NCBI GenBank assembly: GCA_036517335.1
Contig: DATDWX010000033.1
Span: forward strand, 9-64,008
Direction: 5' to 3'
Length of the DNA stretch: 64,000 bases
DNA from: Minisyncoccota bacterium
GTDB taxonomy: Bacteria; Patescibacteriota; Minisyncoccia; Phycocordibacterales; UBA2100
Of the stretch, positions 1 through 52,452 are shown in pieces. Below the pieces are notes generated by a model. The model worked only from the letters and a program-made list of their open reading frames with translations, was not told the DNA's origin and ran no database searches. Each line of letters begins with the position of its first letter. The stretch's first letter is position 1. The translations under genes were made by a program, and so were the position numbers.

Positions 1-233
1 AATTGAATCAACCGTATCGATTACTCGCTGAACCGGCGCGACGTCTGCCTTAATGGCATCCCTCTTTTCCAAAGATTCTCCCGCAATACGCGCGTGCTCT
101 TTTCCATTCGGTGTTAGATTTCCAGCTTCGTCTTTTTCGGCGTGTCTGGTAAAGATGGCGTGTATCTCAACATTACGCCCAAATCTTTCTTTGGATTCAA
201 CTGCATTTTCTAGTTTTGGTTCTCTTGATTCCA
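1..233 (-). CDS. Histidine phosphatase (PGAM-like) family protein, N-terminal part; the gene continues beyond the window start
   Basis: Reverse-strand translation gives MESREPKLENAVESKERFGRNVEIHAIFTRHAEKDEAGNLTPNGKEHARIAGESL... with an RH(A)E catalytic-motif context. The ORF is open to the window edge and is absent from the ORF track because it has no stop. Confidence 0.4.
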
Positions 234-305
234 TATTTAATACCATCTTATCACCCTTGGGTTCGTTTTCACAGAGCCACCGCATAAAAATCCGAAAAGG
301 AAAAA

Positions 306-410
306 CCCGCCCGCATTCATTCCCCAGACCCCTTTCTGCGGGCGGGAGAAGAGCCGAGGTTTTGCGAAATCCTTTTCCCCAGAAAATAGTTTTCGCAAAA
401 CCGAGCCCGC
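306..410. repeat. Nested GC-rich hairpins (cccgcccgca/tgcgggcggg; gccgaggttttgcgaaa/tttcgcaaaaccgagc), related to the palindrome inside the GT2 gene
   Basis: Inverted repeats read directly from the sequence. It shares the gcgggcggg and aggttttgc blocks with the 2335-2424 element. Confidence 0.6.
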
Positions 411-450
411 ATTGAAGCCCCGCCACACTGCCCGAATACTTGGAGGGCAG

Positions 451-541
451 AACCCCAAAAAGAAAAATGTCCTTTCCTTTTTCAGAGAAAATTAGTCGCG
501 CGCAAATCCGAAAAGCAAGGAACATTTTTCTTTTTGGGGTT
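451..541. repeat. 91-bp palindrome with 24-bp arms (aaccccaaaaagaaaaatgtcctt / aaggaacatttttctttttggggtt)
   Basis: Near-perfect inverted repeat with a partly self-complementary interior. Sits in the intergenic region between two minus-strand genes. Confidence 0.6.
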
Positions 542-683
542 GCCGAGCGGAGCGAGGCGGTGGCGGGGCTTTCTCGGAGCGTATGATTTAATTTAGAGCC
601 ACCACGCGCTCCGCGCGTGCGATTAGCCATCGTTACGAATTTTTGATAAAATAGGTTCGAGTGAAGTCATAAAGACACTCACA

Positions 684-1406
684 TTATTTTTTCTTCACCG
701 GTGTCGAGGTCGCGGCTTTTTGGAGGGTTTTGAGTTGCGGGAGGATTTTTTGAATATCGTCCGTATTTTTGAGGCCGTAATACACTTTGCCATTGATCAC
801 GAGCGCTGGCAGCTTATCCTTCACGTCGTTGATCGAGATCAGCGTCTGCAGCGCTCCGATACCCAAATTGTAGTCAAAGGAGTAGACGCGGAGCTGCGGG
901 TACGTTTGTGAAAGCGAAGTCAGCACGTACCCCTGATTCTCGCAGTCCTTGCAATCGCCCTTGTTCGAATAGAAATAGAGAATAAAAACTGGCTTCAATT
1001 TGCACTTTTCCGCGAGCTGTTGCATGAGGAGATAATCCTTGATCTCGAGCAGGGAATACAGCCGCTTCAGCCGCGTGACCTCCGATAGATTGCTCTGGCC
1101 CGGCAAGCCACCACCCTGCGCTTCCATATACGAGAGCTGATTGCCGAGGGAGGCAAGCTCAGACGGAAGGATGGTATTTTCGCCGATGTCGGTGCATGAG
1201 TGCTGCGCGAGGAGATCAAACTGCGTCTCGAGTGAAAGGATGTCGGTGGAAATGGTGTCTTGCGCGGCGCGAATATCGCTGATGCGTGCGTTGTTGAAAT
1301 AGTTGGATGCGTACAGAGCAACGGCAAACATGAGCCCCGTGATGAGGAGCGCGACTATGTAGCTTCCCCAGCGGGCCGTGCGTGTGTTGATGACGGGTTG
1401 TTCCAT
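684..1406 (-). CDS. Membrane-anchored protein with a C-terminal thioredoxin-like CxxC (CKDC) domain, possibly a thiol-disulfide oxidoreductase
   Basis: N-terminal TM helix, a CKDC motif in a Trx-like context (FILYFYSNKGDCKDCENQGY), 240 aa. Confidence 0.4.
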   Translation of the reverse strand: MEQPVINTRTARWGSYIVALLITGLMFAVALYASNYFNNARISDIRAAQDTISTDILSLETQFDLLAQHSCTDIGENTILPSELASLGNQLSYMEAQGGGLPGQSNLSEVTRLKRLYSLLEIKDYLLMQQLAEKCKLKPVFILYFYSNKGDCKDCENQGYVLTSLSQTYPQLRVYSFDYNLGIGALQTLISINDVKDKLPALVINGKVYYGLKNTDDIQKILPQLKTLQKAATSTPVKKK

Positions 1407-1407
1407 A

Positions 1408-2805
1408 CTATCGCCACCGTACGCCGGTTTGAAACACCGCCCGAAAGAGGGCAGTGCCCAGCCAGAGCGGAACGAGAAAACTGTAGAAAAGTAGGAAGAG
1501 CGGTGTCGCCTTGGGCGGCAAACGCTTATTCGTGCCGATCATCGTGCCTGCGCACAGGAGCACCACGATCATCGCAACCGCCATATACACGAGGAACCAC
1601 AACGCGCTTGTATTGAAGTAAAAAAGATCGAATGATAGCTCTGGATAGATGCCGGTCGCGTATGTTCTCTCGACGACCTCCGCAATCCATCGCGTCGAAA
1701 AAAAGGCAATGCGCGCGAAGAAATAGATGCCCGCGAAGACTGAGGTGATGGCAAAAGGTAAGATGACGAGCCCGAGATTGCCGAACTCACGATTGCCGAA
1801 CATGTGGCGATAGTCTACGGCATTGCGCAGCCACCCGTATGTCCAGCGTACACGCTGGCGGAAGAGACCGCGCAATTTCGCAGGTGTCGCAGTGTGTACG
1901 ATCGCAGTAGGTACGTTGGCGATCAAGAACCCCGCATTTTGTACCCGCAGTGCCATCTCCATGTCTTCGGTGGCGTGGCCACGCCGCCAGCCGCCAAGCT
2001 CGCGCACCACTGAGGCGCGAAAGAGTGAAAATGGCCCCGGTGTGATGAAGGCGCTTCCGAGCGCCGCAAGCATGAAGCGGTTGAAGATACTCAATCGGTA
2101 TTCGACATGTTGCATGTGTTGCAGGATTGTCTTCGGGTCTTTTACGTGAATGCCGGGGGTTGCAGCGGCGACTGTTGTGTTTTCAAACACCGGTGCCATT
2201 GCGCGCAGCGCCCCAGGCTCTACGACTGAATCGGCATCCAAGCACCCAACGATATCGGCGGATGTGCGCTCAAGCGCGAAGTTCATCGCCGAATGTTTGC
2301 CACCGTTGGCTTTGTGAAATACCCTGATATGAGGGCGGGCGGGCAAGGTTTTGCCGCCTGCGGGACTTCCCGCCTGCTGGCGGGTTCGGACAAAGTCCTC
2401 GTCGGCAAAACCTTGCCCGCCCGCTACCGCGTCCTCAAATGTCTGCGCGATTTTGAGGGTATTGTCGGTCGAGCCGTCGTCCACCACAATGATCTCAAAT
2501 TTCTCGCGTGGATAATCGAGCGCGAGCAGGGAAGCTACGGTGCCCGCTATCGTTTTTTCTTCGTTGAAACACGGCACAACGATCGCGACCGTGGGTAGTG
2601 TGCCGCTTCCTTTCGCTGGCGAGCGCGTGCCTTTCAACTGCCGTTCGATGAAGGCCGCAAGCAAAAAAACCTCGAAATAGAGGGAGGCGAAAAGAAATCC
2701 ATAGACGATCCATAGGTCGGCTGTCATGGCGAACGAGTATAGCAAAAAAGCGAGGATTTTGCTATATTTTTTGGATGCGTGGCCACATCCACCCGATTTC
2801 CTCAC
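1408..2805 (-). CDS. Family 2 glycosyltransferase, processive type (PgaC/cellulose-synthase-like), multi-TM
   Basis: VVPCFNEE...VVDDGSTDNT (DxD), a Q-R-V-R-W motif (QRVRWTYGW), and flanking TM helices. Confidence 0.8.
   Translation of the reverse strand: MRKSGGCGHASKKYSKILAFLLYSFAMTADLWIVYGFLFASLYFEVFLLAAFIERQLKGTRSPAKGSGTLPTVAIVVPCFNEEKTIAGTVASLLALDYPREKFEIIVVDDGSTDNTLKIAQTFEDAVAGGQGFADEDFVRTRQQAGSPAGGKTLPARPHIRVFHKANGGKHSAMNFALERTSADIVGCLDADSVVEPGALRAMAPVFENTTVAAATPGIHVKDPKTILQHMQHVEYRLSIFNRFMLAALGSAFITPGPFSLFRASVVRELGGWRRGHATEDMEMALRVQNAGFLIANVPTAIVHTATPAKLRGLFRQRVRWTYGWLRNAVDYRHMFGNREFGNLGLVILPFAITSVFAGIYFFARIAFFSTRWIAEVVERTYATGIYPELSFDLFYFNTSALWFLVYMAVAMIVVLLCAGTMIGTNKRLPPKATPLFLLFYSFLVPLWLGTALFRAVFQTGVRWR
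2335..2424. repeat. 90-bp GC-rich palindromic element inserted in frame in the GT2 gene (22-bp arms gcgggcgggcaaggttttgccg / cggcaaaaccttgcccgcccgc)
   Basis: Perfect 22-bp inverted arms. It encodes a roughly 30-aa insertion (VAGGQGFADEDFVRTRQQAGSPAGGKTLPARP) between the DxD region and the conserved HKANGGK block of GT2 enzymes. Confidence 0.75.
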
Positions 2806-5485: not shown

Positions 5486-7525
5486 ATGGCAGACAAAAAA
5501 AAGAAGAAGGCGGGTTCATACAACGCCGCGGACATCACCGTCCTCGAGGGATTGGAGGCGGTACGGAGGAGGCCGGGGATGTACATCGGCACGACCGACA
5601 CGTCGGGCTTGCATCATCTTGTCTGGGAAGTATTCGACAATTCGCGCGACGAGGCGATGGGTGGTTTTGCAAACGACATCGAAGTGGCGCTCCTTCCCGA
5701 CGGCTCGGTGCGCGTCGCCGACAATGGTCGCGGCATTCCAGTAGACGTCCATTCGAAAACAAAAGTCTCCGCGCTCGAAACGGTAATGACAAAATTGCAC
5801 GCCGGTGGCAAATTCGGTGGTGAAGGCTACAAGGTATCCGGCGGCTTGCACGGCGTGGGTGTCTCGGTCGTCAATGCGCTTTCGGATGCGGTGCGTGCGG
5901 AAGTGCATCGTGATGGCGGCGCATACGTGCAGGAATATAAAAATGGTGGCACGCCCGTGAGTAAGATCAAAAGAATGGGCTCGTCGGATCTGCACGGCAC
6001 CATCATCCGCTTTCGCCCCGATTCTTCGGTCTTTCCGGAACGCACATTCAATTGGGAGACGATCGTGGCACATATGCGCCAGCAAGCGTACCTCGTGCGC
6101 GGTTTGAGGATCTCTATCCTCGATCTGCGGCAGGTGCCCAAAGTCGACGTAGAGGACGCGTTCTATGTTCGTGAGCTGGGCATCGAAGCTCCCTCGGTGA
6201 GCTTTTATTTCGAGGGTGGTCTCCGCAGTCTCGTGGCGTTCCAGAATCGTCATCAGGAGCCCATCCACAAAACTATTTTTTACGTGGAGAAGGAAGAAGA
6301 CAACGTGCAGGTGGAGATAGCACTGCAGTATGTAGACGACATCAACGCGCGTCTTTCCGCTTTTGCAAATAATATCTACACTGCCGAAGGCGGTATGCAT
6401 GTGACCGGTTTCAAGGGCGCTCTCACCCGTTCGCTGAACGCACAAATAAAGAACGGTGGTGGCAAGGAGAGCGAGAGTTTTACCGGCGACGACTGCCTGG
6501 AGGGGATGACGGCGGTCATTTCGGTAAAGCTGCGTGAGATCCAATTTGAGGGACAAACGAAAGCCAAGCTCGGCTCGGTAGAGGCGCGCGCCGCGACGGA
6601 GGCGGTGTTTGGGGAAGCATTCAGCGCTTTTCTCGAAGAGCATCCTGACGAAGCCCGGGCAATCATCGCGAAAGTAAGCTTGGCCATGAAGGCGCGCAAG
6701 GCAGCCAAGGCCGCTAAGGATTCGATCCTGCGCAAAGGCGCCCTAGACGGCATGACACTGCCGGGCAAACTTGCCGACTGCCAAACGAAATCAGCAGAGG
6801 AATCCGAGCTGTTTATCGTCGAGGGGGATTCCGCCGGTGGCACTGCCAAAGCAGGTCGCGATCGCCGTACACAGGCGATATTGCCGCTGCGCGGAAAGAT
6901 CCTCAACATCGAGCGGGCGCGACTCGACAAAATGCTCGCCTCCGAGCAGATACGAAATCTTGTGGTCGCTCTCGGGACAGCGATAGGGGATATTTTTGAC
7001 ATTTCCAAATTGCGGTATCACAAGATCATTATCGCCACCGATGCCGACGTGGACGGCGCGCACATCCGCACGCTGCTCCTTACGCTTTTATTCCGACACT
7101 TCCGTCCGGTCATTGACGGCGGCTTTCTCTACATTGCGCAGCCGCCGCTCTACAAGATCAGAAAGGGGAAGGAAGTCGCGTATGCATACAGCGAGGCCGA
7201 AAAGGTTGGCATTGCGGGGAAAGATACCCCGATTGAAGAAGAAACATCGGGGCAAGGGGAGCCAGAGATTCAAGAGGCGACGCCTCTTGAATCTGGGAAA
7301 CGAACTCCAAAAATTTCGGTACAACGCTACAAAGGTCTGGGTGAGATGAATGCCGAGGAATTGTGGGAGACAACGATGGATCCGGCCAAACGCGTGCTTA
7401 TGCAAGTCACCATCCTCGATGCCCAAGAGGCCGACCAGGTCTTCGATATGCTCATGGGCACCGACGTCCCAGCCCGCAAGTCATTCATCCAGTCTCACGC
7501 GCGCGAAGCGACGCTGGATATTTAG
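5486..7525 (+). CDS. gyrB: DNA gyrase subunit B
   Basis: MADKKKK..YNAADITVLEGLEAVRRRPGMYIG, the GHKL ATPase, a TOPRIM (EGDSAGG) and QRYKGLGEM. Confidence 0.95.
   Translation: MADKKKKKAGSYNAADITVLEGLEAVRRRPGMYIGTTDTSGLHHLVWEVFDNSRDEAMGGFANDIEVALLPDGSVRVADNGRGIPVDVHSKTKVSALETVMTKLHAGGKFGGEGYKVSGGLHGVGVSVVNALSDAVRAEVHRDGGAYVQEYKNGGTPVSKIKRMGSSDLHGTIIRFRPDSSVFPERTFNWETIVAHMRQQAYLVRGLRISILDLRQVPKVDVEDAFYVRELGIEAPSVSFYFEGGLRSLVAFQNRHQEPIHKTIFYVEKEEDNVQVEIALQYVDDINARLSAFANNIYTAEGGMHVTGFKGALTRSLNAQIKNGGGKESESFTGDDCLEGMTAVISVKLREIQFEGQTKAKLGSVEARAATEAVFGEAFSAFLEEHPDEARAIIAKVSLAMKARKAAKAAKDSILRKGALDGMTLPGKLADCQTKSAEESELFIVEGDSAGGTAKAGRDRRTQAILPLRGKILNIERARLDKMLASEQIRNLVVALGTAIGDIFDISKLRYHKIIIATDADVDGAHIRTLLLTLLFRHFRPVIDGGFLYIAQPPLYKIRKGKEVAYAYSEAEKVGIAGKDTPIEEETSGQGEPEIQEATPLESGKRTPKISVQRYKGLGEMNAEELWETTMDPAKRVLMQVTILDAQEADQVFDMLMGTDVPARKSFIQSHAREATLDI
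7267..7293. repeat. 27-bp perfect palindrome GATTCAAGAGGCGACGCCTCTTGAATC lying in frame in gyrB (encodes IQEATPLES)
   Basis: Exact palindrome. It sits in the variable loop before QRYKGLGEM, which is about 25 aa longer than in the B. subtilis GyrB. Confidence 0.8.
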
Positions 7526-18453: not shown

Positions 18454-21400
18454 TTACAGTGCTTTCGCTCGCTCTACGACAAAGCTGGGCTCGCCGTTTC
18501 TTTCAGAAATTCTGCCTTTCAGCATGACGCAGGTGCCGGGGGCGAGGAGGGCTTCGTGTTCTTTTAAGATGCGGGGAAACGCGACGGCTTCGATGCCACC
18601 GGAGAGGTCGGCGAGTTTGAGGAAGAGCATACGCTCGCCGTTTTTCGTTAGGATATACTGCACGCTTTCGATGAATCCGGCGATGACCGTCTCGACGCCG
18701 CGCAGATTTTCTTTGGCATGCTGGATGGTTGTTTTCTGATTCGCCAATTTTTCTTTGTGCTTATCGAGCGGGTGACCGGAAATATAGAGGCCGAGCAATT
18801 CCTTTTCCCACACCAACCGTTGATCCATCGTCGCCGGAGGTGCGGGCGGCAACTTCAGCGCCGCAGGCGCTGAAGTTGCCGCTCCGAACAAAGAACCCTG
18901 ATCGGTCGGCGCCTTCATGTGTTCGCGATGATAGGTGAGGAGCAGTTCAACGTTGGCAAAAAGCGCTCCGCGCTCTCCCAGATCATCTAATGCACCACAT
19001 TGGATCAGCGCCTCAAGGGACTTCTTGTTCAAGTTCTTATCGGGGATACGGGAGATAAAGTCGGCAATATCTTTGAACGCGCCGCCCGACTCTCTGGCGG
19101 CAATGATCGAATCCCCCACTCCTGTGCCGAAATTTTTGATGGAGTAAAGACCAAAGCGGATATTCGTCTGATCTACCACAGTAAACACGCCACCACTCTC
19201 ATTGACTGAAGGCGGCCACACGTGGATACCCATTCGTTTGCATTCCGCGACCGCTTCAGCGATTTTTTCCACGTCGCCGGCGTCAGCTGTTAGCACCGCA
19301 GCCATATAGTCCACAGGGAAGTTGGCCTTCATGTACGCCGTTTTGTACGCGAGCGAGCCGTAAGAAGCCGCATGGGCTTTGTTGAATCCGTATGCAGCGA
19401 ATGTCTCTATTTGCTCCCATAATTTTTTTGCTGCATCTGGCTTCATGCCGTTATGTATACAGCCAGTAGTAAAACGCTCTTTCTGTGCCGCCATTTCTTT
19501 CGGCACTTTCTTTCCCATTGCTTTGCGGAATTTGTCGGCCTCGCCCCATGAGTACCCTGCGAGCTGCACAGCTATCATCATCACGTCGTCCTGATAAATG
19601 AGGACGCCATACGTAGGCTTCAAGATTTCCTCCAGACGCGGATCGAGATAGCGCACGCGTGCTGGATTTTTCTTGCGCTCAATGTATTCAGGGATGAAGG
19701 CCATGGGGCCTGGCCGGTAGAGAGCGACCATCGCATTCAAGTCATGGATGACGGTCGGCTTTAGCTCTTTGAGATACGACGTCATACCGCCACCCGCCAT
19801 TTGAAAGACGCCGAGGGTTTCGCCGCGGGTGAGCATCTCGTACACTTTCCCATCGTCGAGCGGAATGCGATCGAGATCCACTTCTTGCCCGAGCCGCGCG
19901 CTCACGCGCGCGACGGAGTCGGCGAGGACCGACAGGTTGGTGAGTCCGAGGAAGTCGAATTTGAGAAGGCCCACGCCGCCATATTCGTCGGCGATAGAGT
20001 ACATGTCGTACTGGGTGATCATTTTGCCACCTTTCGGGTCCATTTGGATCGGCGAGTAGTTGACCACAGGCTCCGGCGCGAGGATCACACCCGCCGCGTG
20101 CACACCGACATGCCGCGCGTTGCCCTCTATCTTTTGCGCAAAGTCAATAATTTCTCGCGCGTCGGGATCATTCTCATACACTTGTTTGAGTTCTGGCACG
20201 CTCTCTAGTGATCCCGCAATAGAGACAGGGAAGCCCTGCTTGCCGAAGGGGATCATTTTGGCCAGAGAATCGCCCTTGCCGTAGGAGTGCCCGAGTGCTC
20301 GCGAGACATCCCGCACTGCAGCGCGCGCCATCATCGTGCCGAACGTGCCGATCTGTACCACTTTGTTCTCGCCGTACTTTTCTCGCGCGTACTCTATTAG
20401 TTCGTCGCGGCGAAAGGCGTCGATATCCATGTCGATATCCGGCGCGCTCGGCCTCTCGGGATTGAGGAAGCGCTCGAAGGGCATGTTGAACTCGAGGGGA
20501 TTGACGCTCGTGATGCCGCAGAGATAGGAGACCAAGGAGCCAGCTGCGGAGCCGCGCGTATTAGTGAAAATGCCTCTCCCCCGTGCCCACGCGAGGAGAT
20601 CAGCGACGATGAGGAAGTACGATGCGTAGCCCTTTTGCCTGATAATGTCGAGTTCATAATTGACCCGCGCCCACATCTCGTGCGATTCCGTGAGTTCGCG
20701 CTCTTTGATGCCGCGCTCAGTGAGCACTCGCAGCTCATGATCGTCCGTGGACCCTGGGGGAATGGGGAAGTTGGGAAAAATGACCTTGCCCAGCGTGAGC
20801 TTGAGGTCGCAGAGATCGGTGATTTTTTGTGCATTTTCGAGCGCCTCGGGCGTGTCGGCGAAAAGTTCAGCAGCGCGTTCGCTTGTAATGAATGAAAAAT
20901 CCGGGCCACTGCCCGCCGATTCACGATCAAGCGTACCCCCCGTGCGTATCTTGATGACGAGCTCGCGCGCGGCCGCGTCCTCTTTCTGCATATAGTAAAC
21001 GTCGTGCGCCGCCACCAATTCGACAAGCTCATGGCGAGCTAGTGTGACAATACGGCGCATCTTTTCCTCGTGTCCTTCGACTTCCGGGTGGTGGGTGATT
21101 TCGATGAAATATTTTTCTCCATACAATTTTTTGTACCACGCCAGGATTTCTTTCGCACGTTCGACATTCCCGTCCGCCAAAGCGCGGGCATGCTCACCCG
21201 AAAAGCTGGGCAGTATCGCAATCAATCCATCGCGGTGTTGCTCCATCAATTCCCTATCAATGCGCGGGCGATAATAAAATCCTTCGAGATACGATTTTGA
21301 TACGAGCTGGAGAAGATTGTGATACCCCGCCTCATTCGCCGCGAGCAACACAAGCCGCGAGTGTCTATCGTCCACCCGGTGCTCTTTATCGCGCCGCGTG

Positions 21401-21722: not shown

Positions 21723-22337
21723 ATGGAACAGATGAAATACCTCATCGGCATCGACGAGGCGGGGCGGGGGCCTTTGGCTGGGCCGGTTGCCGTGGGGGCG
21801 GTTGTTGTTCCTCGGAATTTTGATTGGAAGCTCGTCGCTGGTGCCAAGGATTCCAAGCAGATGACCCCGGCGGGGCGGGAGAGCTTGTACTCCACGATGA
21901 GCGAATTGCGCAAGGAGGGAAAACTCGATTTTGTCGTTGCATTTTCCTACCCAGCCATGATTGATCGGCAGGGCATTGTTCCGGCGATCCAAAGCGCCCT
22001 CAACCGAGCCCTGAGCAAAATTCAAGAGGCGTCGCCTCTTGAATGCGAGGTGCGGCTCGACGGGAATCTCAAGGCTCCCTCCGAGTTCGTTCATCAAACC
22101 ACTATCATCCGCGGCGACGAGTCGGAGTCTGTCATTTCCCTAGCCTCGATCGCTGCCAAGGTGGAGCGTGATCTCCTGATGGCGCGGCTTGCTACGAAGT
22201 ATCCGGCGTACAGATTTGAAAAACACAAGGGGTACGGCACCGCAGAGCACAGGCGGAACATCCGGGAGTTTGGGCTCTGCAAAATTCACCGGGCCACATT
22301 TTGCACACGTTTGCTTCTTGGCTCAAATGCAGTATAA
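21723..22337 (+). CDS. rnhB: Ribonuclease HII
   Basis: IGIDEAGRGPLAGPV, DSKQ, the LDGN..., KGY motifs. Confidence 0.85.
   Translation: MEQMKYLIGIDEAGRGPLAGPVAVGAVVVPRNFDWKLVAGAKDSKQMTPAGRESLYSTMSELRKEGKLDFVVAFSYPAMIDRQGIVPAIQSALNRALSKIQEASPLECEVRLDGNLKAPSEFVHQTTIIRGDESESVISLASIAAKVERDLLMARLATKYPAYRFEKHKGYGTAEHRRNIREFGLCKIHRATFCTRLLLGSNAV
22020..22044. repeat. 25-bp perfect palindrome ATTCAAGAGGCGTCGCCTCTTGAAT in frame in rnhB (encodes KIQEASPLE)
   Basis: Exact palindrome. Same family and same coding phase as the gyrB and tsaD copies. Confidence 0.8.
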
Positions 22338-29322: not shown

Positions 29323-32300
29323 ATGGCGAAAACCAAAGCGGTGCGACCGCAGAAATTCTTCGGCAAGTTTCGCGAGCCTCTCGTGAAAATGCCAAATCTC
29401 GTGGACAGCCAGCTGGCCAGCTTCCGCGAGTTCATCGAAGGTGGCGCGGAGCGCGTTTTTAAAGAGTTCTCGCCGATATCGGACCACGCCGGAAAGAAAT
29501 TTGAATTGAAACTCGTCAAATTCACCTTTGGTGATGTGCGCTGGGACGAGCACTACGCCAAGCGGACGATGCGCACGTATGAAGCGCCGCTCTCGATGGT
29601 GGTGAAATTGAAGAACAAAACGACGGGCGAGGAAAAGGAGCAGGAAATTTTCTTGGCGGATTTTCCGTGGATGACGGCGCACGGCTCGTTCATCATCAAC
29701 GGCGTTGAGCGTGTCGTCGTGTCGCAGCTCGCTCGCTCGTACGGCGTCTTTTTTGAAGCGGTGCCGATAAAGGGCAAAACATATTTCGCGGCAAAAATAA
29801 TCCCCGCTCGCGGCGTGTGGATCGAGATCGAGAGCGATCCGGATGGCGGCATGTACGTGAAGGTAGATCGCAAACGCCGCTTCCCTATCACTACTCTCCT
29901 GCGCTGCCTCGGGCTCACGACCGATTCGGAGATCCAAGGTCATTTTTCCCAATCAGCCCCCGCCTGCGACGCTGTGAACGCAACTTTGCAACACGACACC
30001 GCGAAGACGCCGGAAGAGGCGTTTGTAGAGATCTACCGCCGATTGCGCGATGGTGACATCGCCACAGCCGACAACGCGCGTGATCACGTGCAGACCATCC
30101 TCTCGGGAGAGCGCTATGATCTTTCGAAAGTGGGCCGTTTTCACTTCAATCGCCGCTTCGGTTTGCCTACCGGAGAGAAAGAGCTCACTGGTTCGACTCT
30201 CACGCAGGGCGACGTCGTCCGGATCGTGACACATATCGCTGAACTAAACGCCGATCCAAAAGCAGAAGGCGACGACATCGACCACCTCGGCTTCCGTCGC
30301 GTGCGATTCGTCGGCGAGTTGCTTGAGCAGCGGATGCGCGTGGGACTCTCGCGCATGAAGCGCAATATCCAAGACAGGATGGCGATGGTGGACGCGGAGA
30401 CGTCGAGTCCGGTTTCTATGATCAATCCTCGCCCCTTCCAGGCCGCGATACGCGAATTCTTCACCACCGACCAGCTATCGCAGCTCATGCAGCAGTACAA
30501 CACACTCGATGAGATAGAACACCTCCGCATTCTCTCCACGCTCGGCCGGGGCGGCCTCACCTCGGAGCGCGCTGGTCTTGAGGTGCGCGACGTGCACTCG
30601 TCGCACTACGGCAGGGTTTGCCCCATTCACACACCAGAAGGCAAGAACATCGGCCTCGTCTTGCACCTTTCGCTCTACGCGAGACCCAACGAGTTTGGCA
30701 TCATCGAGACCCCGTATGCCAAAGTGGAAAAGGCCGTCGTAAGCGACAAGATCCTGTATTTGAACGCATTCGAGGAAGAACAGTACGCGATCGCGCACGC
30801 AGCGACCGCGCGCGACGAACACGGCAAGATCATCGAAAAAATGGTCGAGGCGCGCAAGGGCGGCAAACCGACCCTCGTCCCGCGCGACGAAGTAGATTTT
30901 ATGGAAGTGGCCACCAACCAGCCGTTCTCGGTCGCGACGTCCCTCATCCCATTCGTCGAGAATGACGACGCGAACCGTGCGCTCATGGGTTCCAACATGC
31001 AAAAGCAAGCAGTGCCTCTGGTCGTCCCCGAGGCGCCCGTGGTCGCAACAGGTGTTGAAGCGGCCGCCGCGCACGACTCTGGTCGCCTCGTCCTTGCAGA
31101 CGAAGCAGGAGAAATCGTGTACGCCGATGCGCGGATGGTCAAGGTGAAAAATCAGGACGGTAAGACCAAGCAATATGATCTCGTAACCTTTTTGCGCACC
31201 AATGGCTTCACGACGCTCAATCAACGCCCAGCCGTTCGAGCAGGAGATCGCGTCAAGCGCGGAGACATACTCGCCGATATGTCTACATCGGTCGGCGGCC
31301 AGCTCTCGATCGGGCAAAACGTCCGGGTAGCATTCTTGCCGTGGTTTGGCGCTAATTACGAAGACGCAATCGTCATTTCAGAGCGTCTCGCGAAGACGGC
31401 GAAATTTACCTCCATCCACATGGAAGAATTCGTCTCCGTCGTGCGCGACACGAAGCTCGGTCCTGAAGTCACGACGCACGACATTTCCAATGTATCCGAA
31501 TTCAAGCTCCGCAATCTCGATGAGGACGGGATCGTGCGCATTGGCGCCGAGGTGCGTCCCGGCGATATTTTGGTAGGCAAAGTAACGCCCAAGGGCGAGA
31601 CGCAGCTGACTCCCGAAGAGCGGCTTTTGCACGCGATATTCGGCGAGAAAGCAAAGGACGTGAAAGACACTTCACTGCGTATGGAAGGCGGCAAGCGCGG
31701 CCGCGTCATCGGGGTCAAGGTGTTTTCGCGCGAGTCTGGCGACAATTTGGAGAGCGGCGTTATCAAACGCGTGCATGTGGAGGTGGCGCAGCTGCGCGCG
31801 ATCTCGGTGGGCGATAAGCTTGCCGGCCGTCACGGCAACAAGGGTGTCATATCGCGCGTCCTGCCGGAAGAAGACATGCCGTTCGACGAAGACGGCAACC
31901 CCGTGGATATTATTCTTACGCCACTTGGCGTGCCGAGCCGCATGAATCTCGGGCAAATTTTGGAGTTGCACCTTGGGCTCGCGGCAGGTGCCCTCGGATA
32001 CCAAGCAGTGGTGCCGTCATTCGCCGGTGCGACCGAAGTCGAGATCAGGGAAGAATTGAAAAAGGCCGGTTTCCATGAGAGCGGTAAGCGCAAGCTCTTC
32101 GACGGTCGCACCGGCGAAGCGTTTGCGCAGCCGGTATCGGTGGGCGTGATGTACATGCTGAAGTTGCACCACATGGTGGAAGACAAGATCCACATGCGCT
32201 CAATCGGTCCGTATTCGCTCACGACACAGCAACCTCTCGGCGGCAAAGCGCAAAACGGCGGCCAGCGGGTGGGGGAAATGGAAGTCTGGGCGTTCCTCGG

Positions 32301-36642: not shown

Positions 36643-36673
36643 AATATTAGTGGTTTACGAAACCACTAATATT
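36643..36673. repeat. REP-like 31-bp palindrome AATATTAGTGGTTTACGAAACCACTAATATT overlapping the RAYT1 stop codon
   Basis: 14-bp perfect arms. Copy 1 of 3 of this family. Confidence 0.75.
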
Positions 36674-37328
36674 CCAGGCGGTACTCCTTGAGAGAGCTTG
36701 CTTGGTTGGATCGCAAGAATGACGAGATTTCTTTTTTGTAGTCCTTAAAGACGTCGGAGAAGAGTTCGGTTGTCAGAATTGATGGAAAATTGTGTGTCCC
36801 CGTGTAGTCGAGGTAGCTGCTCCACTTATATTTTTCAAGAGTTTGCAATGCAGCTGTAGCACTCTGCAAACCATGTTGCCGCCATTCCTTGCCGCCGCGA
36901 GAAAAGTCGAGTGGATTACTATGAATGTAATTGAGAATGTGCAAAAAATGTGCGTCGGTATGGATGTGAACCTTCTTGCTGCGTCCCTGAAAAAGCGTGC
37001 CTTGCCGTTTATATCGCTCGTTAAAGTAATTGGCATATCCCACGTTCAGGCGACGAATAAACTTTGTAAGGCCGCCGTCTATCCGTTCAGATATGAGAAG
37101 GTGATAGTGATTTCCCATAAGACACCATGCATGCAGATCAACGATCCGCTCCTTTGCCATATAGTGGTTTCGTAAACCACTAATATCAGACGCGCGATGC
37201 CAAACATTTTTTGCGTCTTCAACGTCATTGAATTCCCACATGTCGTGTACGAACCGGGCCCTGTCCTTGTCATCAAGGAATAATGATCGCTTATCAACGC
37301 CGCGATTCAAAACGTGGTACAGCTCCAT
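36666..37328 (-). CDS. REP-associated tyrosine transposase (RAYT) / IS200-like HUH-Y1 transposase, copy 1
   Basis: HUH motif (AWCLMGNHYHLLI) and a Y1 motif (LNYIHSNPL; compare YIYINPV in E. coli RayT). 220 aa, flanked by REP-like palindromes. Confidence 0.8.
   Translation of the reverse strand: MELYHVLNRGVDKRSLFLDDKDRARFVHDMWEFNDVEDAKNVWHRASDISGLRNHYMAKERIVDLHAWCLMGNHYHLLISERIDGGLTKFIRRLNVGYANYFNERYKRQGTLFQGRSKKVHIHTDAHFLHILNYIHSNPLDFSRGGKEWRQHGLQSATAALQTLEKYKWSSYLDYTGTHNFPSILTTELFSDVFKDYKKEISSFLRSNQASSLKEYRLEY
37159..37186. repeat. REP-like palindrome (ATATAGTGGTTTCGTAAACCACTAATAT) inside the RAYT1 coding sequence (encodes DISGLRNHY)
   Basis: Same arms as the flanking copies with a complementary centre. 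Confidence 0.7.
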
Positions 37329-37337
37329 ACCATCATT

Positions 37338-37369
37338 ATATATTAGTGGTTTACGAAACCCCTAATATT
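37338..37369. repeat. REP-like palindrome ATATATTAGTGGTTTACGAAACCCCTAATATT immediately upstream of the RAYT1 start
   Basis: One mismatch relative to copy 1. Confidence 0.7.
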
Positions 37370-37518: not shown

Positions 37519-39300
37519 ATGTCAGATACTGTGCAGCAAATTAAGGATAGGTTGTCTATTACGGATGTGGTCAGCCAGTACGTGAAATTGGAACGAGCGG
37601 GCTCGACACTCCGCGCCCGTTGCCCTTTCCACGCCGAGAAAACACCCTCCTTTTTCGTCTCGCCCGAACGCGGCACCTACCACTGCTTCGGTTGCAATGT
37701 GGGCGGCGACATATTCTCGTTCGTCGAGCAGATCGAGGGACTGGATTTTAAAGGGGCGCTGAAGATTCTTGCAGAAAAAGCCGGCGTGGAGATCGTGTAC
37801 CGGGGCAAGGGTGAGTCTCGGGAGGGCAGGGATGAACGCGACCGATTATTTGCGCTTATGGAAACGGCCGCGATCTTTTATGCGTCGCGCTTGAGCGACG
37901 GGGCGCGGAGTTATTTACAGGGACGCGGCGTCGAAGACGCCACCGTACACGCTTTTCGTATTGGCTGGGCAGGCAATGAGTGGAGCGAGGCGTCGGATTA
38001 TCTGAAAGGCAAAAGGTTTACCGACAAAGAAATGATTGACGCCGGTATTGCAAAGAAAAACGAACGTGGCAACCTGACCGACAAATTCCGCAACCGCATC
38101 ATGTTTCCTATTGCGGATTCAGCCGGGCGCGTGGTGGCTTTTTCTGGTAGAATTTTTGGTGAGCACGCCTCTCCCGAGGCACCCAAATATTTGAATAGCC
38201 CCGAGACGCAGCTGTATCACAAATCCCGGATACTCTACGCATTCGACCGCGCCAAAATGGCTATCCGCAAGGCTGCTTGCGCGGTCTTGGTGGAAGGACA
38301 GATGGATCTCATTATGAGTCACCAAGCAGGATGGACCAACACCGTTGCCGTTTCGGGTACCGCCTTCACGCAGGAGCACGCAGCGCTTATTCGGCGGATG
38401 ACGGATAATCTCGTGCTTGCCCTCGACGCTGATCAGGCGGGTATAAAAGCAGCGGGTCGCGCTGCCCGGGTGGCCCTGCAGGGCGGACTCAATGTGAAAG
38501 TAGCCCAGTTGCCCGAGAATATGGACCCCGCCGACCTCATCGCGAAGCGCGGCATTGATGCGTGGAAAACAGCAATTCGTGAGGCTAAAGACATCATCAC
38601 CTTTTTGCTTGATGTGCTCGAGAAGCACCTGCCTGCGCAGGCAGGTGCCCAGCACAGCGACCGATTTCGCCGTGCGGTGGAGACGGTCGTACTGCCGTTT
38701 GTGGTGGATGTGGGAAGCCCGATTGCGCGTGAGCAGTATATGCGGCAAATCGCAGGGCGCCTCGGCGTCTCGGAGAGCGCAGTCGCAGAGGCGCTGAAGC
38801 GCGTGCCGACCGAGTCTCTCACGACAGGCACCAAGGGAATGGTGGCACCGCCTGAAAGTGGGACAACCACACTGAAGGGTCTCGATAGGGTACAGCCCTC
38901 CTTCGCCAAAGGTTTCGAGAGGACGCGGCATGGATATGCCTTGCTCCTTCTGCAAACTTCGATGCCAAAACCGGACATTGATATTGTGCAATACGCGCGA
39001 GAGCTTGAGGTCGCAATAGGCAAAGAGGCATTCAAAGCTCTCGAAGCCTTGAGCGAATCCGAAAAGGAAGTCCTTCGTTTTTCTGCCGAACGCTTGTACA
39101 GTGCGAGCAAGAATGTAGTGCGTGACGCCCATGAGCTCGTGAAGATCCTCCACGAGGAACGATTGCGGCGCGAACTTGCCGAAGTGGTCAAACTGCAGCA
39201 AAAGGCCGAACGCGCAGGTGGCAAGGCCGAACTGGCCACGCTGGAGAAGCGATCGAAGGTGTTGATAGCCAAGATTGCACAATTGCACGGAAAGGGATAG
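37519..39300 (+). CDS. dnaG: DNA primase
   Basis: Zn-ribbon CPFHAEKTPSF...CFGC and a TOPRIM (VEGQMD, DADQAG). Confidence 0.9.
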   Translation: MSDTVQQIKDRLSITDVVSQYVKLERAGSTLRARCPFHAEKTPSFFVSPERGTYHCFGCNVGGDIFSFVEQIEGLDFKGALKILAEKAGVEIVYRGKGESREGRDERDRLFALMETAAIFYASRLSDGARSYLQGRGVEDATVHAFRIGWAGNEWSEASDYLKGKRFTDKEMIDAGIAKKNERGNLTDKFRNRIMFPIADSAGRVVAFSGRIFGEHASPEAPKYLNSPETQLYHKSRILYAFDRAKMAIRKAACAVLVEGQMDLIMSHQAGWTNTVAVSGTAFTQEHAALIRRMTDNLVLALDADQAGIKAAGRAARVALQGGLNVKVAQLPENMDPADLIAKRGIDAWKTAIREAKDIITFLLDVLEKHLPAQAGAQHSDRFRRAVETVVLPFVVDVGSPIAREQYMRQIAGRLGVSESAVAEALKRVPTESLTTGTKGMVAPPESGTTTLKGLDRVQPSFAKGFERTRHGYALLLLQTSMPKPDIDIVQYARELEVAIGKEAFKALEALSESEKEVLRFSAERLYSASKNVVRDAHELVKILHEERLRRELAEVVKLQQKAERAGGKAELATLEKRSKVLIAKIAQLHGKG

Positions 39301-51673: not shown

Positions 51674-51707
51674 CGACATTTAACGTCTTGGGTTATTGGA
51701 AAAATAA

Positions 51708-51744
51708 TGAAAGACATCGGATGTTGGACATCCGATGTCTTTCA
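51708..51744. repeat. REP-like palindrome TGAAAGACATCGGATG-ttgga-CATCCGATGTCTTTCA upstream of RAYT2
   Basis: 16-bp perfect arms. Shares the GACATCCGATGTC core with 52426-52452. Confidence 0.7.
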
Positions 51745-51759
51745 TGGTATCATTGGGGT

Positions 51760-52422
51760 ATGGATCTGTACCACATTTGCAATCGGGGTGTCGATAAGCG
51801 AGAGGTGTTTCTTGATGATGGCGATCGCACACGATTCGTTCATGACCTGTATGTAATGAACGATGTGCATTCGGTGCCGAATCACGGCCGTCATGAGCTA
51901 GGCAACATATCAGATGCAGGACACGAACGAGAGCCACTTGTTCATTTGTACGCATGGTGTCTCATGCCCAACCATTACCACCTACTCCTGTCCCCGGTCG
52001 ACGATGAGCCCGCGAATCTGTCTTTGTTTGCGCAGAAAGTGGGCATGGGCTACTCGAAGTTTTTCAATAAAAAATACAAACGATCCGGTGCCCTTTGGCA
52101 GGGGAAACATAAAAAGGTGCATATACAACGAGACGCTCATTTCCTCTATATTCCGTTCTATATCCATCTTAATCCTCTCGACCTATCGATTCCGGAATGG
52201 CGTCACGGGCGGGTGAAGGATGTGGACAAGGCCTTGGAACAACTAAGCGGCTATCGCTGGAGCAGTTTTCTCGACTATACTGGAGTAAAAAATTTCCCGT
52301 CCCTTATCGACAAACCTCTGCTTACAGATATGCTCGGTTCGCGCAAGAAACAAAGCAAGATAATAGCGGATATCATCGGCGACGGAATATTGGCAAATTC
52401 CAGCTGGGCATTAGAGATGTAG
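51760..52422 (+). CDS. REP-associated tyrosine transposase (RAYT) / IS200-like HUH-Y1 transposase, copy 2
   Basis: AWCLMPNHYHLLL (HUH) and FYIHLNPLD (Y1). 220 aa, a paralogue of 36666-37328. Confidence 0.8.
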   Translation: MDLYHICNRGVDKREVFLDDGDRTRFVHDLYVMNDVHSVPNHGRHELGNISDAGHEREPLVHLYAWCLMPNHYHLLLSPVDDEPANLSLFAQKVGMGYSKFFNKKYKRSGALWQGKHKKVHIQRDAHFLYIPFYIHLNPLDLSIPEWRHGRVKDVDKALEQLSGYRWSSFLDYTGVKNFPSLIDKPLLTDMLGSRKKQSKIIADIIGDGILANSSWALEM

Positions 52423-52425
52423 AAC

Positions 52426-52452
52426 AATGAGGGACATCCGATGTCCTTCATT
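52426..52452. repeat. REP-like palindrome AATGAGGGACATCCGATGTCCTTCATT immediately downstream of RAYT2
   Basis: 13-bp arms with one mismatch. Confidence 0.65.

What the first reader, a model, noticed from the sequence alone, without database searches (positions are those of the whole stretch)
2335..2424. 90-bp GC-rich palindromic element inserted in frame in a GT2 glycosyltransferase gene, with relatives in the 250-680 intergenic region
Perfect 22-bp inverted arms (gcgggcgggcaaggttttgccg / cggcaaaaccttgcccgcccgc) enclose a 46-bp interior with further self-complementarity. The element is exactly 90 bp and encodes a 30-aa Gly/Ala/Arg-rich loop. The loop lies between the DxD region and the conserved H-K-x-N-G-G-K block, where other PgaC-like enzymes have no such segment. 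The hairpin cluster at 306-410 shares gcgggcggg and aggttttgc blocks. A further large palindrome with 24-bp arms lies at 451-541. This looks like a MITE-like or RPE-like palindromic element family able to insert in frame.
Basis: seen in the sequence. Interest (0 to 1): 0.7.

Follow-up and report, generated by a model that had tools for sequence, protein, structure and literature searches.

The report
Hairpin repeat translated inside a glycosyltransferase
A 90-base DNA hairpin sits in frame inside a sugar-transferase gene of an uncultured Paceibacterota (CPR) bacterium; it belongs to a small dispersed family of hairpin repeats, resembles the REP and Rickettsia-type palindromic elements known elsewhere, and has stayed self-complementary across very old species splits.

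Summary
Window 2335-2356 and 2403-2424 are perfect 22-nt inverted arms around a 46-nt centre (DNA fold z = -8.5). The 90 bp lie in frame in a GT2 gene (1408-2727, minus strand) and encode a low-confidence surface loop.

- The centre recurs in hairpins at about 6 unrelated, mostly intergenic places in Kaiserbacteria/Paceibacterota DNA, so a dispersed family exists.
- The window holds two RAYT-like Y1 transposase genes, each flanked by palindromes of other families.
- The GT2 copy is not a private recent insertion. Eight other orthologues of 120 (57-70% identical) carry a long hairpin at the same codon; five clearly keep the same centre, in the same orientation and frame. Sister orthologues are empty or keep remnants.
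- Among six GT2 copies the arms are no more alike than saturated four-fold sites (39% vs 38%). Across 15 family copies they remain 96% Watson-Crick paired, with no G-T excess. The centre is 68% conserved and is inverted between orthologous intergenic loci.

Best reading: an old REP/RPE-like insertion, translated, repeatedly lost, with arms kept complementary by a DNA-level process such as template switching. I found no target duplication, no second coding target, and only a weak link to the 306-410 hairpins.

The parts
1408..2727 (-). GT2 (PgaC/cellulose-synthase-like) glycosyltransferase gene, 439 aa, host of the element
   Evidence: ORF. Pfam Glyco_tranf_2_3, Glycos_transf_2 and Glyco_trans_2_3. 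100% identical to P0001, 'MAG TPA: glycosyltransferase, Candidatus Paceibacterota'. AF2 model mean pLDDT 87.
2335..2424 (-). 90-bp hairpin element, in frame, encoding residues about 102-131 (AGGQGFADEDFVRTRQQAGSPAGGKTLPAR). The centre reads in the sense direction on the minus strand.
   Evidence: Covariance model R1 scores 77.6 bits on the minus strand and 34.4 on the plus strand. pLDDT is 50-69 over residues 101-130, against >90 on both sides.
2335..2356 (.). Arm on the window + strand (the 3' arm in gene orientation), GCGGGCGGGCAAGGTTTTGCCG
   Evidence: 22/22 complementary to 2403-2424. Resembles the arms of intergenic copies L014, L016, L021 and L023.
2357..2402 (-). Asymmetric conserved centre. 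Gene strand: ACGAGGAC TTTGTCCGAA [CCCGCCAGCAGGCGGG] AAGTCC CGCAGG. The nested apical hairpin is at 2369-2384.
   Evidence: Aligned with 9 other copies (A1). Centre identity among GT2 copies is 68%, against 38-39% for four-fold sites and arms.
2403..2424 (.). Second arm, CGGCAAAACCTTGCCCGCCCGC. In gene orientation this arm is preceded by GGTA, which with its first G reads GTAG.
306..346 (.). Intergenic hairpin CCCGCCCGC / GCGGGCGGG with a 23-nt loop, followed on the minus strand by TTTTTCCTTTT. Possible terminator; shares only the 9-mer with the element.
358..402 (.). Intergenic hairpin GGTTTTGCGAAA / TTTCGCAAAACC. It shares the GGTTTTGC..GCAAAACC stem base with the element but has a different loop.
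   Evidence: R1 gives only 9.3 bits, E = 5.8. It differs from a 99%-identical strain by a paired G:C to C:G swap.
451..541 (.). Unrelated large intergenic palindrome: 31-nt arms at 90%, 20 nt perfect
   Evidence: No match in any fetched locus.
36643..37364 (-). RAYT-like Y1/HUH transposase gene (36669-37328, 220 aa; HYH motif and YIHSNP). Three copies of the palindrome ATATTAGTGGTTT(ACG/CGT)AAACCACTAATAT sit at 36643-36673 (contains the stop codon), 37162-37186 (in frame inside the gene) and 37340-37364 (just upstream of the start).
   Evidence: Pfam Y1_Tnp 33.3 bits, cutoff 23. NCBIfam best hit is REP-associated tyrosine transposase, 39.8 bits, below its cutoff of 80. Sequence.
51707..52452 (+). 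Second RAYT-like gene (51760-52422; 48.5% identical to the first) flanked by its own palindromes: ATGAAAGACATCGGATGT TGG ACATCCGATGTCTTTCAT at 51707-51745, and 52426-52452.
   Evidence: tblastn E = 4e-60. Sequence and pattern search. Pfam Y1_Tnp is weak, 19.8 bits.

Best explanation
The 90-bp palindrome is one copy of a low-copy, dispersed family of hairpin repeats found in Kaiserbacteria-like Paceibacterota. Each copy has long GC-rich complementary arms around a conserved asymmetric centre.

Shown:
- The family exists in several unrelated genomic contexts.
- The GT2 copy is in frame and lies in a surface loop.
- Orthologous copies sit at the same codon in distant species.
- The arms are no more alike than saturated neutral sites, yet remain almost perfectly Watson-Crick complementary.
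- The centre can be inverted between orthologous loci.

Inferred:
- One element entered the helix-strand loop of the GT2 gene in an ancestor of this clade. An 8-17-nt addition at the hairpin tip made it readable, with the left half in one frame and the right half in another.
- It has since been inherited vertically and translated as a disordered loop of about 30 aa.
- It was repeatedly lost by deletion, leaving remnants.
- The arms are kept complementary by a DNA-level copying process, namely intrastrand template switching or hairpin-directed conversion. That process also explains the inversion of the centre.
- The family originally spread as single-stranded hairpins handled by a Y1/HUH (RAYT-like) transposase. 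Two such genes, each with palindromes of other families, lie in the same window.
For: Family in other contexts:
- The pattern CGAGRACN{10,40}ARTYCCGCAGNCGRMAAAA found hairpin-embedded copies in genome contigs and metagenome contigs.
- These lie in the infC/rpmI-rplT spacer (L012, L022, L016/L020, L015/L029), downstream of a hybrid histidine kinase (L014/L030, L021), upstream of a DEAD-box helicase (L018), and at L011, L023 and L027.
- L014 and L015 come from the same MAG.
- Hits without a hairpin (L013, L019, L024-L026, L028) match the few chance matches expected.

Same site in orthologues:
- 9 of 120 closest homologues carry a long insert between FExD and PRVRVF.
- DNA of all of them folds into a long hairpin, always in frame. 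Synteny pheS-GT2-~236-aa gene is kept.
- L001, L004, L005 and L006 share the apical addition GCG(G/A)AGC(G/T) and the frame arrangement FxxED...ASPAGGK.

Loss:
- P0047, sister of P0018, keeps only ACGCGGCAAGGC-AAG-GCCTTGCCGCGT.
- P0002, sister of the query, keeps TLPPG.
- P0005 is empty.

Age and constraint:
- Among 6 GT2 copies: amino-acid identity 63%, four-fold third positions 38%, outer arms 39%, centre 68%.
- Pairing in the arms of 15 copies: 311/324 Watson-Crick; mismatches G-T 4, A-C 5, other 4.
- Covariation: 41 cells changed on both sides against 15.6 in shuffles, 0/500 reaching the observed value. 13 of 25 pairs show compensatory changes.

Inversion: L012/L022 and L020 share both flanks, but the centre is reverse-complemented.

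Compensatory change at strain level: a G:C to C:G swap in hairpin 358-402 between the window and L034, which are about 99% identical there.

Template switching is documented to create perfect stems, make multi-base compensatory changes and invert loops (PMC8794818).

Surface loop: pLDDT is 50-69 only over the insert.

RAYT-like genes with flanking palindromes. Intragenic REPs, REPs supplying TAG stop codons and in-frame RPEs are known (PMC3733652; PMC10969869).
Against: - No second copy of the family was found in the 64-kb window or elsewhere in the fetched loci beyond the matches that brought them in, so copy number looks low.
- There is no target-site duplication.
- No RAYT-like gene was found next to a copy of this family. 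The two in the window are flanked by other palindromes.
- The window's arms look like those of intergenic copies in other genomes, while other GT2 copies have unrelated arms. In addition, the centres of L002 and L006 resemble intergenic L011 and L018 more than they resemble L001 and L004. Both points fit re-insertion or conversion from other copies better than simple vertical descent.
- Conservation of the centre in old, presumably immobile GT2 copies is not explained by selfish mobility alone.
- Translation of the loop is inferred from frame and intact downstream motifs, not observed.
Confidence: 0.55

Rival explanations
1. Recurrent site-specific insertion or conversion. The same loop of the GT2 gene was hit several times by elements from each genome's own pool, or the resident copy was overwritten by gene conversion from them, rather than descending from one ancient insertion.
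For: - Insert-bearing orthologues are scattered among empty ones in the NJ tree.
- The window's arms match intergenic copies L014, L016, L021 and L023 from other genomes, although neutral sites are saturated.
- The centre variant TGTYTGAG..GAGTTCCGCAG is shared by GT2 copies L002 and L006 and intergenic copies L011 and L018.
- L009 carries an unrelated palindrome at the same site.
Against: - All GT2 copies with a recognisable centre have the same orientation, the same frame switch and an addition at the same apical point, although the flipped orientation would also stay open.
- Remnants in sister lineages fit loss.
- The flanks of different copies share no target motif.
- The NJ tree has no support values.
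Confidence: 0.2
2. A palindrome made in place. Replication template switching created and extended a hairpin within a variable loop, with no mobile element involved. This would be part of a general tendency of this genome to accumulate perfect palindromes in coding DNA.
For: - The window has about 14 perfect inverted repeats with arms of 12 nt or more, where well under 1 is expected.
- Several lie in variable parts of genes: gyrB 7266-7294, dnaE 18846-18882, tsaD 57841-57878 and 58106-58155, dnaG 38625-38648.
- The gyrB palindrome is not a net insertion relative to orthologues.
- There is no target duplication.
Against: The same 29-46-nt centre, and in several cases the same arms, occur at unrelated loci and in different genomes. 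Local template switching cannot produce that.
Confidence: 0.08
3. A selected nucleic-acid structure. The hairpin with its conserved unpaired nucleotides would be a functional RNA or DNA site, such as a protein-binding site, a processing site or a translational pause, kept by the host in the GT2 mRNA and in intergenic transcripts.
For: - The centre is conserved (68%) where neutral sites are saturated, in both coding and non-coding copies.
- Covariation in the stems is strong.
- A second hairpin family (L015 287-384, L007 8015-8107) also has conserved junction nucleotides and covarying inner stems.
- Most copies are sense to the flanking genes.
Against: - There is no excess of G-T over A-C mismatches (4 against 5), and the 17-26-bp arms are nearly perfect, more than RNA function needs.
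- The centre is inverted between orthologous infC-rpmI spacers.
- L023 is antisense to its upstream gene.
- No Rfam family matches.
- Most orthologues do without the hairpin.
Confidence: 0.12
4. Assembly or sequencing artefact, such as a fold-back chimera.
For: Hairpins do disturb sequencing. In contig L034 of the same species the hairpin is replaced by poly-G noise.
Against: - The identical protein is on 4 contigs from NCBI and ENA.
- Eight other species have in-frame hairpins at the same codon in independent assemblies.
- The reading frame is intact.
Confidence: 0.01

Closest known systems
Rickettsia palindromic elements (RPE)
   Same: Palindromic repeats of about 100-150 bp that sit in frame inside genes, are translated as extra surface segments compatible with the fold, also occur between genes, and are found at the same position in orthologues of related species (PMC10969869; PMC3733652).
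   Different: RPEs hit dozens of unrelated genes per genome (44 insertions in R. conorii) and encode a conserved peptide along their whole length. Here only one coding target was found, copy number looks low, the arms are not conserved, and the host is a CPR bacterium. Sequence homology to RPEs was not tested.
REP / REPIN elements with RAYT (Y1/HUH) transposases
   Same: - GC-rich hairpins, often just after stop codons and sometimes supplying TAG. For example, L014 follows a TAG, and the palindrome of RAYT-like gene 1 contains its stop codon.
- They are sometimes intragenic, and inverted doublets form long hairpins.
- RAYT-like genes flanked by their own palindromes are present in this window.
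- A GTAG tag precedes the arm in 3 of 15 copies, including the window's.
   Different: REPs are 20-40 nt with 5-13-bp stems and are usually abundant. In REPINs the arms are the conserved part and the spacer varies, which is the opposite of this family. No RAYT-like gene flanked by this family has been seen.
MITEs (for example Correia/NEMIS, ERIC)
   Same: Small non-autonomous inverted-repeat elements, found between genes and occasionally within them, able to create in-frame fusions.
   Different: There is no target-site duplication, no parent IS with the same ends, and the complementarity runs along almost the whole element rather than only the termini.
Template-switch (quasi-palindrome) mutation as maker and keeper of perfect hairpins
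   Same: Perfect stems, multi-base compensatory change and loop inversion are the documented footprints (PMC8794818). All three are seen here.
   Different: This is a mutational process, not an element. It explains maintenance and inversion but not the presence of the same centre at unrelated loci.

Membership tests
RPE (Rickettsia palindromic elements) | Palindromic repeat inserted in frame in a protein-coding gene and compatible with the fold | tested here: met
   In frame with no stop. Low-pLDDT loop between helix 90-102 and strand 133-138.
RPE (Rickettsia palindromic elements) | Many in-frame insertions in unrelated genes of one genome | tested here: not met
   GT2 is the only coding context among about 14 true pattern hits. 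No other copy in the 64-kb window. A six-frame peptide query found nothing at E <= 10. Sensitivity is limited.
RPE (Rickettsia palindromic elements) | Sequence membership in an RPE family, with a CGTC terminal tag | not tested
   No RPE consensus was compared. CGTC occurs on the window + strand just before the arm at 2403 (CTCGTCGGCAAAACC), but this was not evaluated statistically.
REP / REPIN (GTAG superfamily) | Terminal GTAG tetranucleotide outside the stem | tested here: inconclusive
   Exact GTAG at one end in 3 of 15 copies (window, L016, L023). Degenerate forms (ATAG, CTAG, ATAAG, CCAG, ACAG) in others. Rough chance estimate P of about 0.01.
REP / REPIN (GTAG superfamily) | Short unit (20-40 nt, stem 5-13 bp) in tens to thousands of copies | tested here: not met
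   Elements are 65-101 nt with 17-26-bp arms. One copy per 64-kb window and 2 strict-pattern copies in one MAG. Whole genomes could not be scanned.
REP / REPIN (GTAG superfamily) | A cognate RAYT gene flanked by the same repeats (REPtron) | tested here: not met
   Two RAYT-like genes are in the window, but they are flanked by other palindromes. tblastn found none in the loci that carry this family. Only a few kb around each copy were available.
MITE | Target-site duplication flanking terminal inverted repeats | tested here: not met
   No direct repeat of 3 nt or more at the two flanks of any of the 15 copies.
MITE | Parent autonomous IS with the same termini | not testable with these tools
No transposase lies adjacent to any copy in the fetched loci.
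Known structured RNA (Rfam) | Match to a curated covariance model | tested here: not met
   Only sub-threshold miRNA-like hairpin hits (26.8 bits against a gathering score of 78), and nothing in L011, L012, L014 or L015.
Template-switch-maintained hairpin | Near-perfect Watson-Crick stems, compensatory changes and loop inversion without strand bias | tested here: met
   311/324 Watson-Crick pairs with G-T 4 against A-C 5. 0/500 shuffles reach the observed covariation. Centre inverted between orthologous loci. Paired swap between strains.

The most novel reading that the evidence does not exclude
The hairpin may not be mere selfish DNA. It could be a structure-specific site, with conserved unpaired nucleotides on a sequence-free stem, that a hairpin-binding protein recognises, for example a RAYT-like HUH enzyme. 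On this reading the CPR lineage has kept it inside an essential-looking envelope glycosyltransferase gene for a very long time. Inversion of its centre, which keeps the frame open in all four copies tested, would then switch the peptide displayed in the enzyme's surface loop. More broadly, Paceibacterota would carry a previously undescribed class of hairpin elements with a conserved centre and free arms, several of them translated.
Probability: 0.15. Interest if true: 0.75.

Novelty: new variant of a known kind. Interest (0 to 1): 0.5.

Why it matters
Protein-coding palindromes are best known from Rickettsia, with scattered intragenic REPs elsewhere. Two full-text searches here turned up nothing comparable for the Candidate Phyla Radiation.

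This case adds a natural experiment. The same hairpin has sat at the same codon across species so diverged that silent sites are saturated. Its arms have drifted freely in sequence and yet stayed almost perfectly complementary on both strands. That is direct comparative evidence for a DNA-level mechanism that keeps hairpins perfect. It bears on how long palindromes persist in small genomes, how new protein loops arise, and how REP-like elements and Y1 transposases behave in CPR bacteria.

There is also a practical warning. The hairpin wrecked base calling in one public assembly, producing a false Gly-rich protein variant.

Tried and rejected
- Rfam scans of window 200-2800 and of four loci gave only sub-threshold miRNA-like hairpin hits.
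- Covariance model R1 on the window and on all loci: no further significant copy. Window 352-407 scored only 9.3 bits.
- Viral contigs hold no copy of the centre.
- A protein search with the six-frame translation of the canonical element, and another with a profile of the GT2 insert peptides, both returned nothing at E <= 10. The queries were too short to be sensitive.
- Searches of the loci for the 451-541 arm and for GGTTTTGCS..SGCAAAACC found none.
- Target-site duplications: none.
- The consensus terminator/promoter scan was not informative, because its loop limit excludes these hairpins.
- The apparent allelic variant P0122 (GGGGGGGWGGEGG...) was rejected as a poly-G sequencing artefact, since the rest of the gene is identical.
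- The idea that the centre in the infC-rpmI spacer is an L20 leader was rejected, because it is inverted in L016/L020 and Rfam finds no L20 leader.
- The idea that the arms are copies of native GT2 flanks found no support in the codon comparison.
- I could not obtain the rest of the window organism's genome. Its own GT2 copy fits the pattern but was not returned by either collection scan.
Full report
**1. The observation**

Window 2335-2356 and 2403-2424 are perfect 22-nt inverted arms with 46 nt between them. The arm has no other match in the 64 kb even with 3 mismatches (expected 0.01). As single-stranded DNA the region folds at -46.6 kcal/mol, z = -8.5 against shuffles.

The 90 bp are in frame in a GT2 glycosyltransferase gene on the minus strand (1408-2727, 439 aa). 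That protein is 100% identical to one from a 'Candidatus Paceibacterota' MAG. The insert lies after the DDGS motif and its helix and before the strand leading to HKANGGK; the DxD motif (LDADS) is further downstream. An AlphaFold2 model is confident overall (mean pLDDT 87, pTM 0.85). It drops to 50-69 only over residues about 101-130, between helix 90-102 and strand 133-138. The segment is therefore a surface loop.

**2. Orthologues**

Of the 120 best homologues, most are 405-416 aa and have nothing at this site. Nine, counting the window's own protein, carry a 21-45-aa insert at exactly the same place: P0001, P0004, P0016, P0018, P0023, P0024, P0043, P0093 and P0117. Several others carry 2-9 extra residues.

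I fetched the DNA of all eight foreign inserts. Synteny (pheS, GT2, a ~236-aa gene) shows that they are orthologues. Every insert is a long hairpin and every one is in frame.
- In five of them (L001, L002, L004, L005, L006) the centre of the hairpin is clearly homologous to the window's: CGAGGAC..TTGT.CGAA..AGTCCCGCAGGCGGAAAA.
- L007 and L008 keep part of the centre.
- L009 has an unrelated palindrome.

The outer arms share no sequence between species, yet each pair is complementary.

An NJ tree scatters insert-bearing genes among empty ones. Sister genes show decay:
- P0047 keeps only a 12-bp stem with a 3-nt loop at the site.
- P0002, the closest relative of the window gene, keeps TLPPG.
- P0005 is cleanly empty (FEQD|PRVRIF).

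**3. A dispersed family**

I scanned for a degenerate pattern of the centre in 185,579 species genomes and in JGI metagenomes. Besides GT2 copies, the scans returned hairpin-embedded copies in other places:
- the spacer between infC and rpmI-rplT (L012, L022, L016/L020, L015/L029);
- directly after a hybrid histidine-kinase gene and before a cold-shock gene (L014/L030, L021);
- overlapping the stop codon of an ORF upstream of a DEAD-box helicase (L018);
- L011, L023 and L027.

L014 and L015 come from one Kaiserbacteria MAG. A handful of hits without any hairpin are the expected chance matches.

The basic intergenic form is about 73 nt: GGCGGCGGGCGGGATTTTGCCG ACGAGGACATTGTGCGAAAGTCCCGCAGG CGGCAAAATCCCGCCCGCCGCC. 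The GT2 copies carry 8-17 extra nt at the hairpin tip. With that addition the left half is read in one frame (F-A/F-D/G-E-D) and the right half in another (S-P-A-G-G-K), and the total length keeps the gene in frame.

The window's arms resemble those of several intergenic copies (L014, L016, L021, L023). No Rfam family matches. A covariance model built from ten copies finds all known copies. It finds no second one in the window and none elsewhere in the fetched loci. Viral contigs have none.

**4. How the hairpin evolves**

Among six GT2 copies, amino-acid identity averages 63%. Four-fold degenerate third positions average 38%, which is saturation. Outer arms average 39% and the centre 68%. The arms are thus free in sequence.

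Over 15 copies, 311 of 324 arm positions are Watson-Crick pairs. The 13 mismatches are G-T 4, A-C 5 and other 4. Covariation is far above shuffled and slid controls.

The absence of a G-T excess and the near-perfection of 17-26-bp arms argue for a process acting on DNA, symmetric for both strands, rather than selection on an mRNA fold. Two further footprints fit this:
- The centre is reverse-complemented between L012/L022 and L020, although both flanks are homologous.
- In a strain about 99% identical to the window in this region (L034), the neighbouring hairpin 358-402 differs by a paired G:C to C:G swap.

Replication template switching is documented to create perfect stems, make multi-base compensatory changes and invert loops (PMC8794818). 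Inverting the centre would keep the GT2 frame open in the four copies tested. Even so, all GT2 copies with a recognisable centre have the same orientation, which fits common descent.

**5. Context in the window**

Two paralogous Y1/HUH transposase-like genes of the RAYT type lie in the window.
- 36669-37328 (minus strand): Pfam Y1_Tnp above threshold; the best NCBIfam hit is 'REP-associated tyrosine transposase', below its cutoff; it has an HYH motif and YIHSNP.
- 51760-52422 (plus strand): 48.5% identical to the first.

Each is flanked by its own palindrome family. One copy of the first family lies in frame inside the gene itself, and another contains its stop codon. In the closest relative's contig (L031), an inverted doublet of that same palindrome centre (GGGGTTTACGAAACCCC) is in frame in pheT.

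The window also has perfect palindromes in variable parts of gyrB, dnaE, tsaD (two) and dnaG. L001 has a palindromic in-frame insert in gyrB. Translated palindromes are therefore a recurrent trait of this lineage, as in Rickettsia (PMC10969869). Intragenic REPs in other bacteria are similar (PMC3733652).

A GTAG tag precedes the arm in the window copy and in two others. This is suggestive of the GTAG REP superfamily but not conclusive.

**6.

306-346 and 358-402 share GCGGGCGGG and GGTTTTGC..GCAAAACC with the element, but they have other loops (both contain TTCCCCAGA). The family model does not recognise them (E = 5.8). 451-541 is unrelated. Comparison with strain L034 shows that synteny between two strains of this species ends inside this hairpin cluster, near position 350.

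**7. Verdict**

The palindrome is real, and it is a copy of a hairpin-repeat family that works like REP/REPIN/RPE elements. It fails the defining tests of a MITE (no target duplication). It fails those of a classical REP (size, copy number, conserved arms, cognate RAYT). It also fails that of an RPE (many coding targets).

The GT2 copy is most likely an old insertion, translated as a disordered loop and often lost. Its arms are kept complementary by template switching or a similar DNA-level conversion. Re-insertion or conversion from other copies cannot be excluded. A host function for the conserved centre also remains possible.

P0122, an apparent Gly-rich allele, is a poly-G sequencing artefact at the hairpin.

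Noticed in passing
window 36643-37364: RAYT-like Y1/HUH transposase gene (36669-37328, minus strand) with three copies of ATATTAGTGGTTT(ACG/CGT)AAACCACTAATAT. One contains its stop codon, one is in frame inside the gene (residues DISGLRNHY), and one is just upstream of the start. This is a REPtron-like arrangement in a CPR genome.
   Followed up: partly
window 51707-52452: Second RAYT-like gene (51760-52422, 48.5% identical to the first). It is flanked by a different palindrome: an 18-nt-arm doublet at 51707-51745 and a single unit at 52426-52452.
   Followed up: partly
L031 1298-1344: In the closest relative's contig, an inverted doublet AAGGGGTTTACGAAACCCCTT / AAAGGGGTTTCGTAAACCCCTT lies in frame in pheT (peptide EKGFTKPLSERGFVNPL). 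It has the same centre as the palindromes around the window's first RAYT-like gene. The window's pheT lacks it.
   Followed up: partly
window 7266-7294 and 22020-22044: Two copies of the palindrome ATTCAAGAGGCG-N-CGCCTCTTGAAT. One is in frame in the variable acidic linker of gyrB (PEIQEATPLES) and is not a net insertion relative to orthologues. The other is in an unannotated 149-codon ORF.
   Followed up: partly
window 57841-57878 and 58106-58155: Two long palindromes, 38 nt with no spacer and 50 nt, in frame inside tsaD (peptides NPDTSLYNEVSGL and AVQGPSLIQLVQGRSLNI).
   Followed up: no
window 18846-18882: Perfect palindrome with 17-nt arms and a 3-nt loop in the variable linker of dnaE (AATSAPAALKLPP).
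   Followed up: no
window 38625-38648 and 46452-46473: Related palindromes GCACCTGCCTGC|GCAGGCAGGTGC (in dnaG) and CCCTGCCTGCC|GGCAGGCAGGG (in a PD-(D/E)XK nuclease gene).
   Followed up: no
window 32020-32035 / 32103-32118: Perfect 16-nt inverted repeat inside conserved rpoB coding sequence (FAGAT ... GRTGE). This is improbable by chance (about 0.003 per window) and may be a quasi-palindrome made perfect.
   Followed up: no
L034 10300-10410: In a contig of the same species (99.97% identical over 10.3 kb), the GT2 hairpin is replaced by poly-G-rich sequence. This yields a false protein variant (P0122, GGGGGGGWGGEGG...), a base-calling artefact caused by the hairpin.
   Followed up: yes
window about 345-355 against L034 about 12393: Synteny between two strains of the species ends inside the hairpin cluster, and the downstream genes differ. 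In addition, hairpin 358-402 differs between the strains by a paired G:C to C:G swap.
   Followed up: partly
L015 287-384 and L007 8015-8107: A second hairpin family has variable outer arms ending in TTTGCCG/CGGCAAA. It has conserved junctions (GTCGCTATCTG, CAGCGCT, CTGCGAA) and two inner stems that covary between the two copies. In L007 it lies between pheS and the GT2 gene.
   Followed up: no
L001 1593-1642: A 50-nt palindrome (20-nt arms) forms an in-frame insert in gyrB of another Paceibacterota genome, at a site where other orthologues have shorter, different inserts.
   Followed up: partly
L009 3328-3369: At the same GT2 codon site, P0024 carries an unrelated palindrome (ACTTGGGAGCTTAACT ... 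AGTTAAGCTCCCAAGT) with no trace of the family centre.
   Followed up: no
window 1-666 (minus strand): The reading frame of the downstream gene stays open for 222 codons, through the whole hairpin cluster upstream of its likely start (MVLNMES at 247). The upstream part does not look like protein and was not examined further.
   Followed up: no
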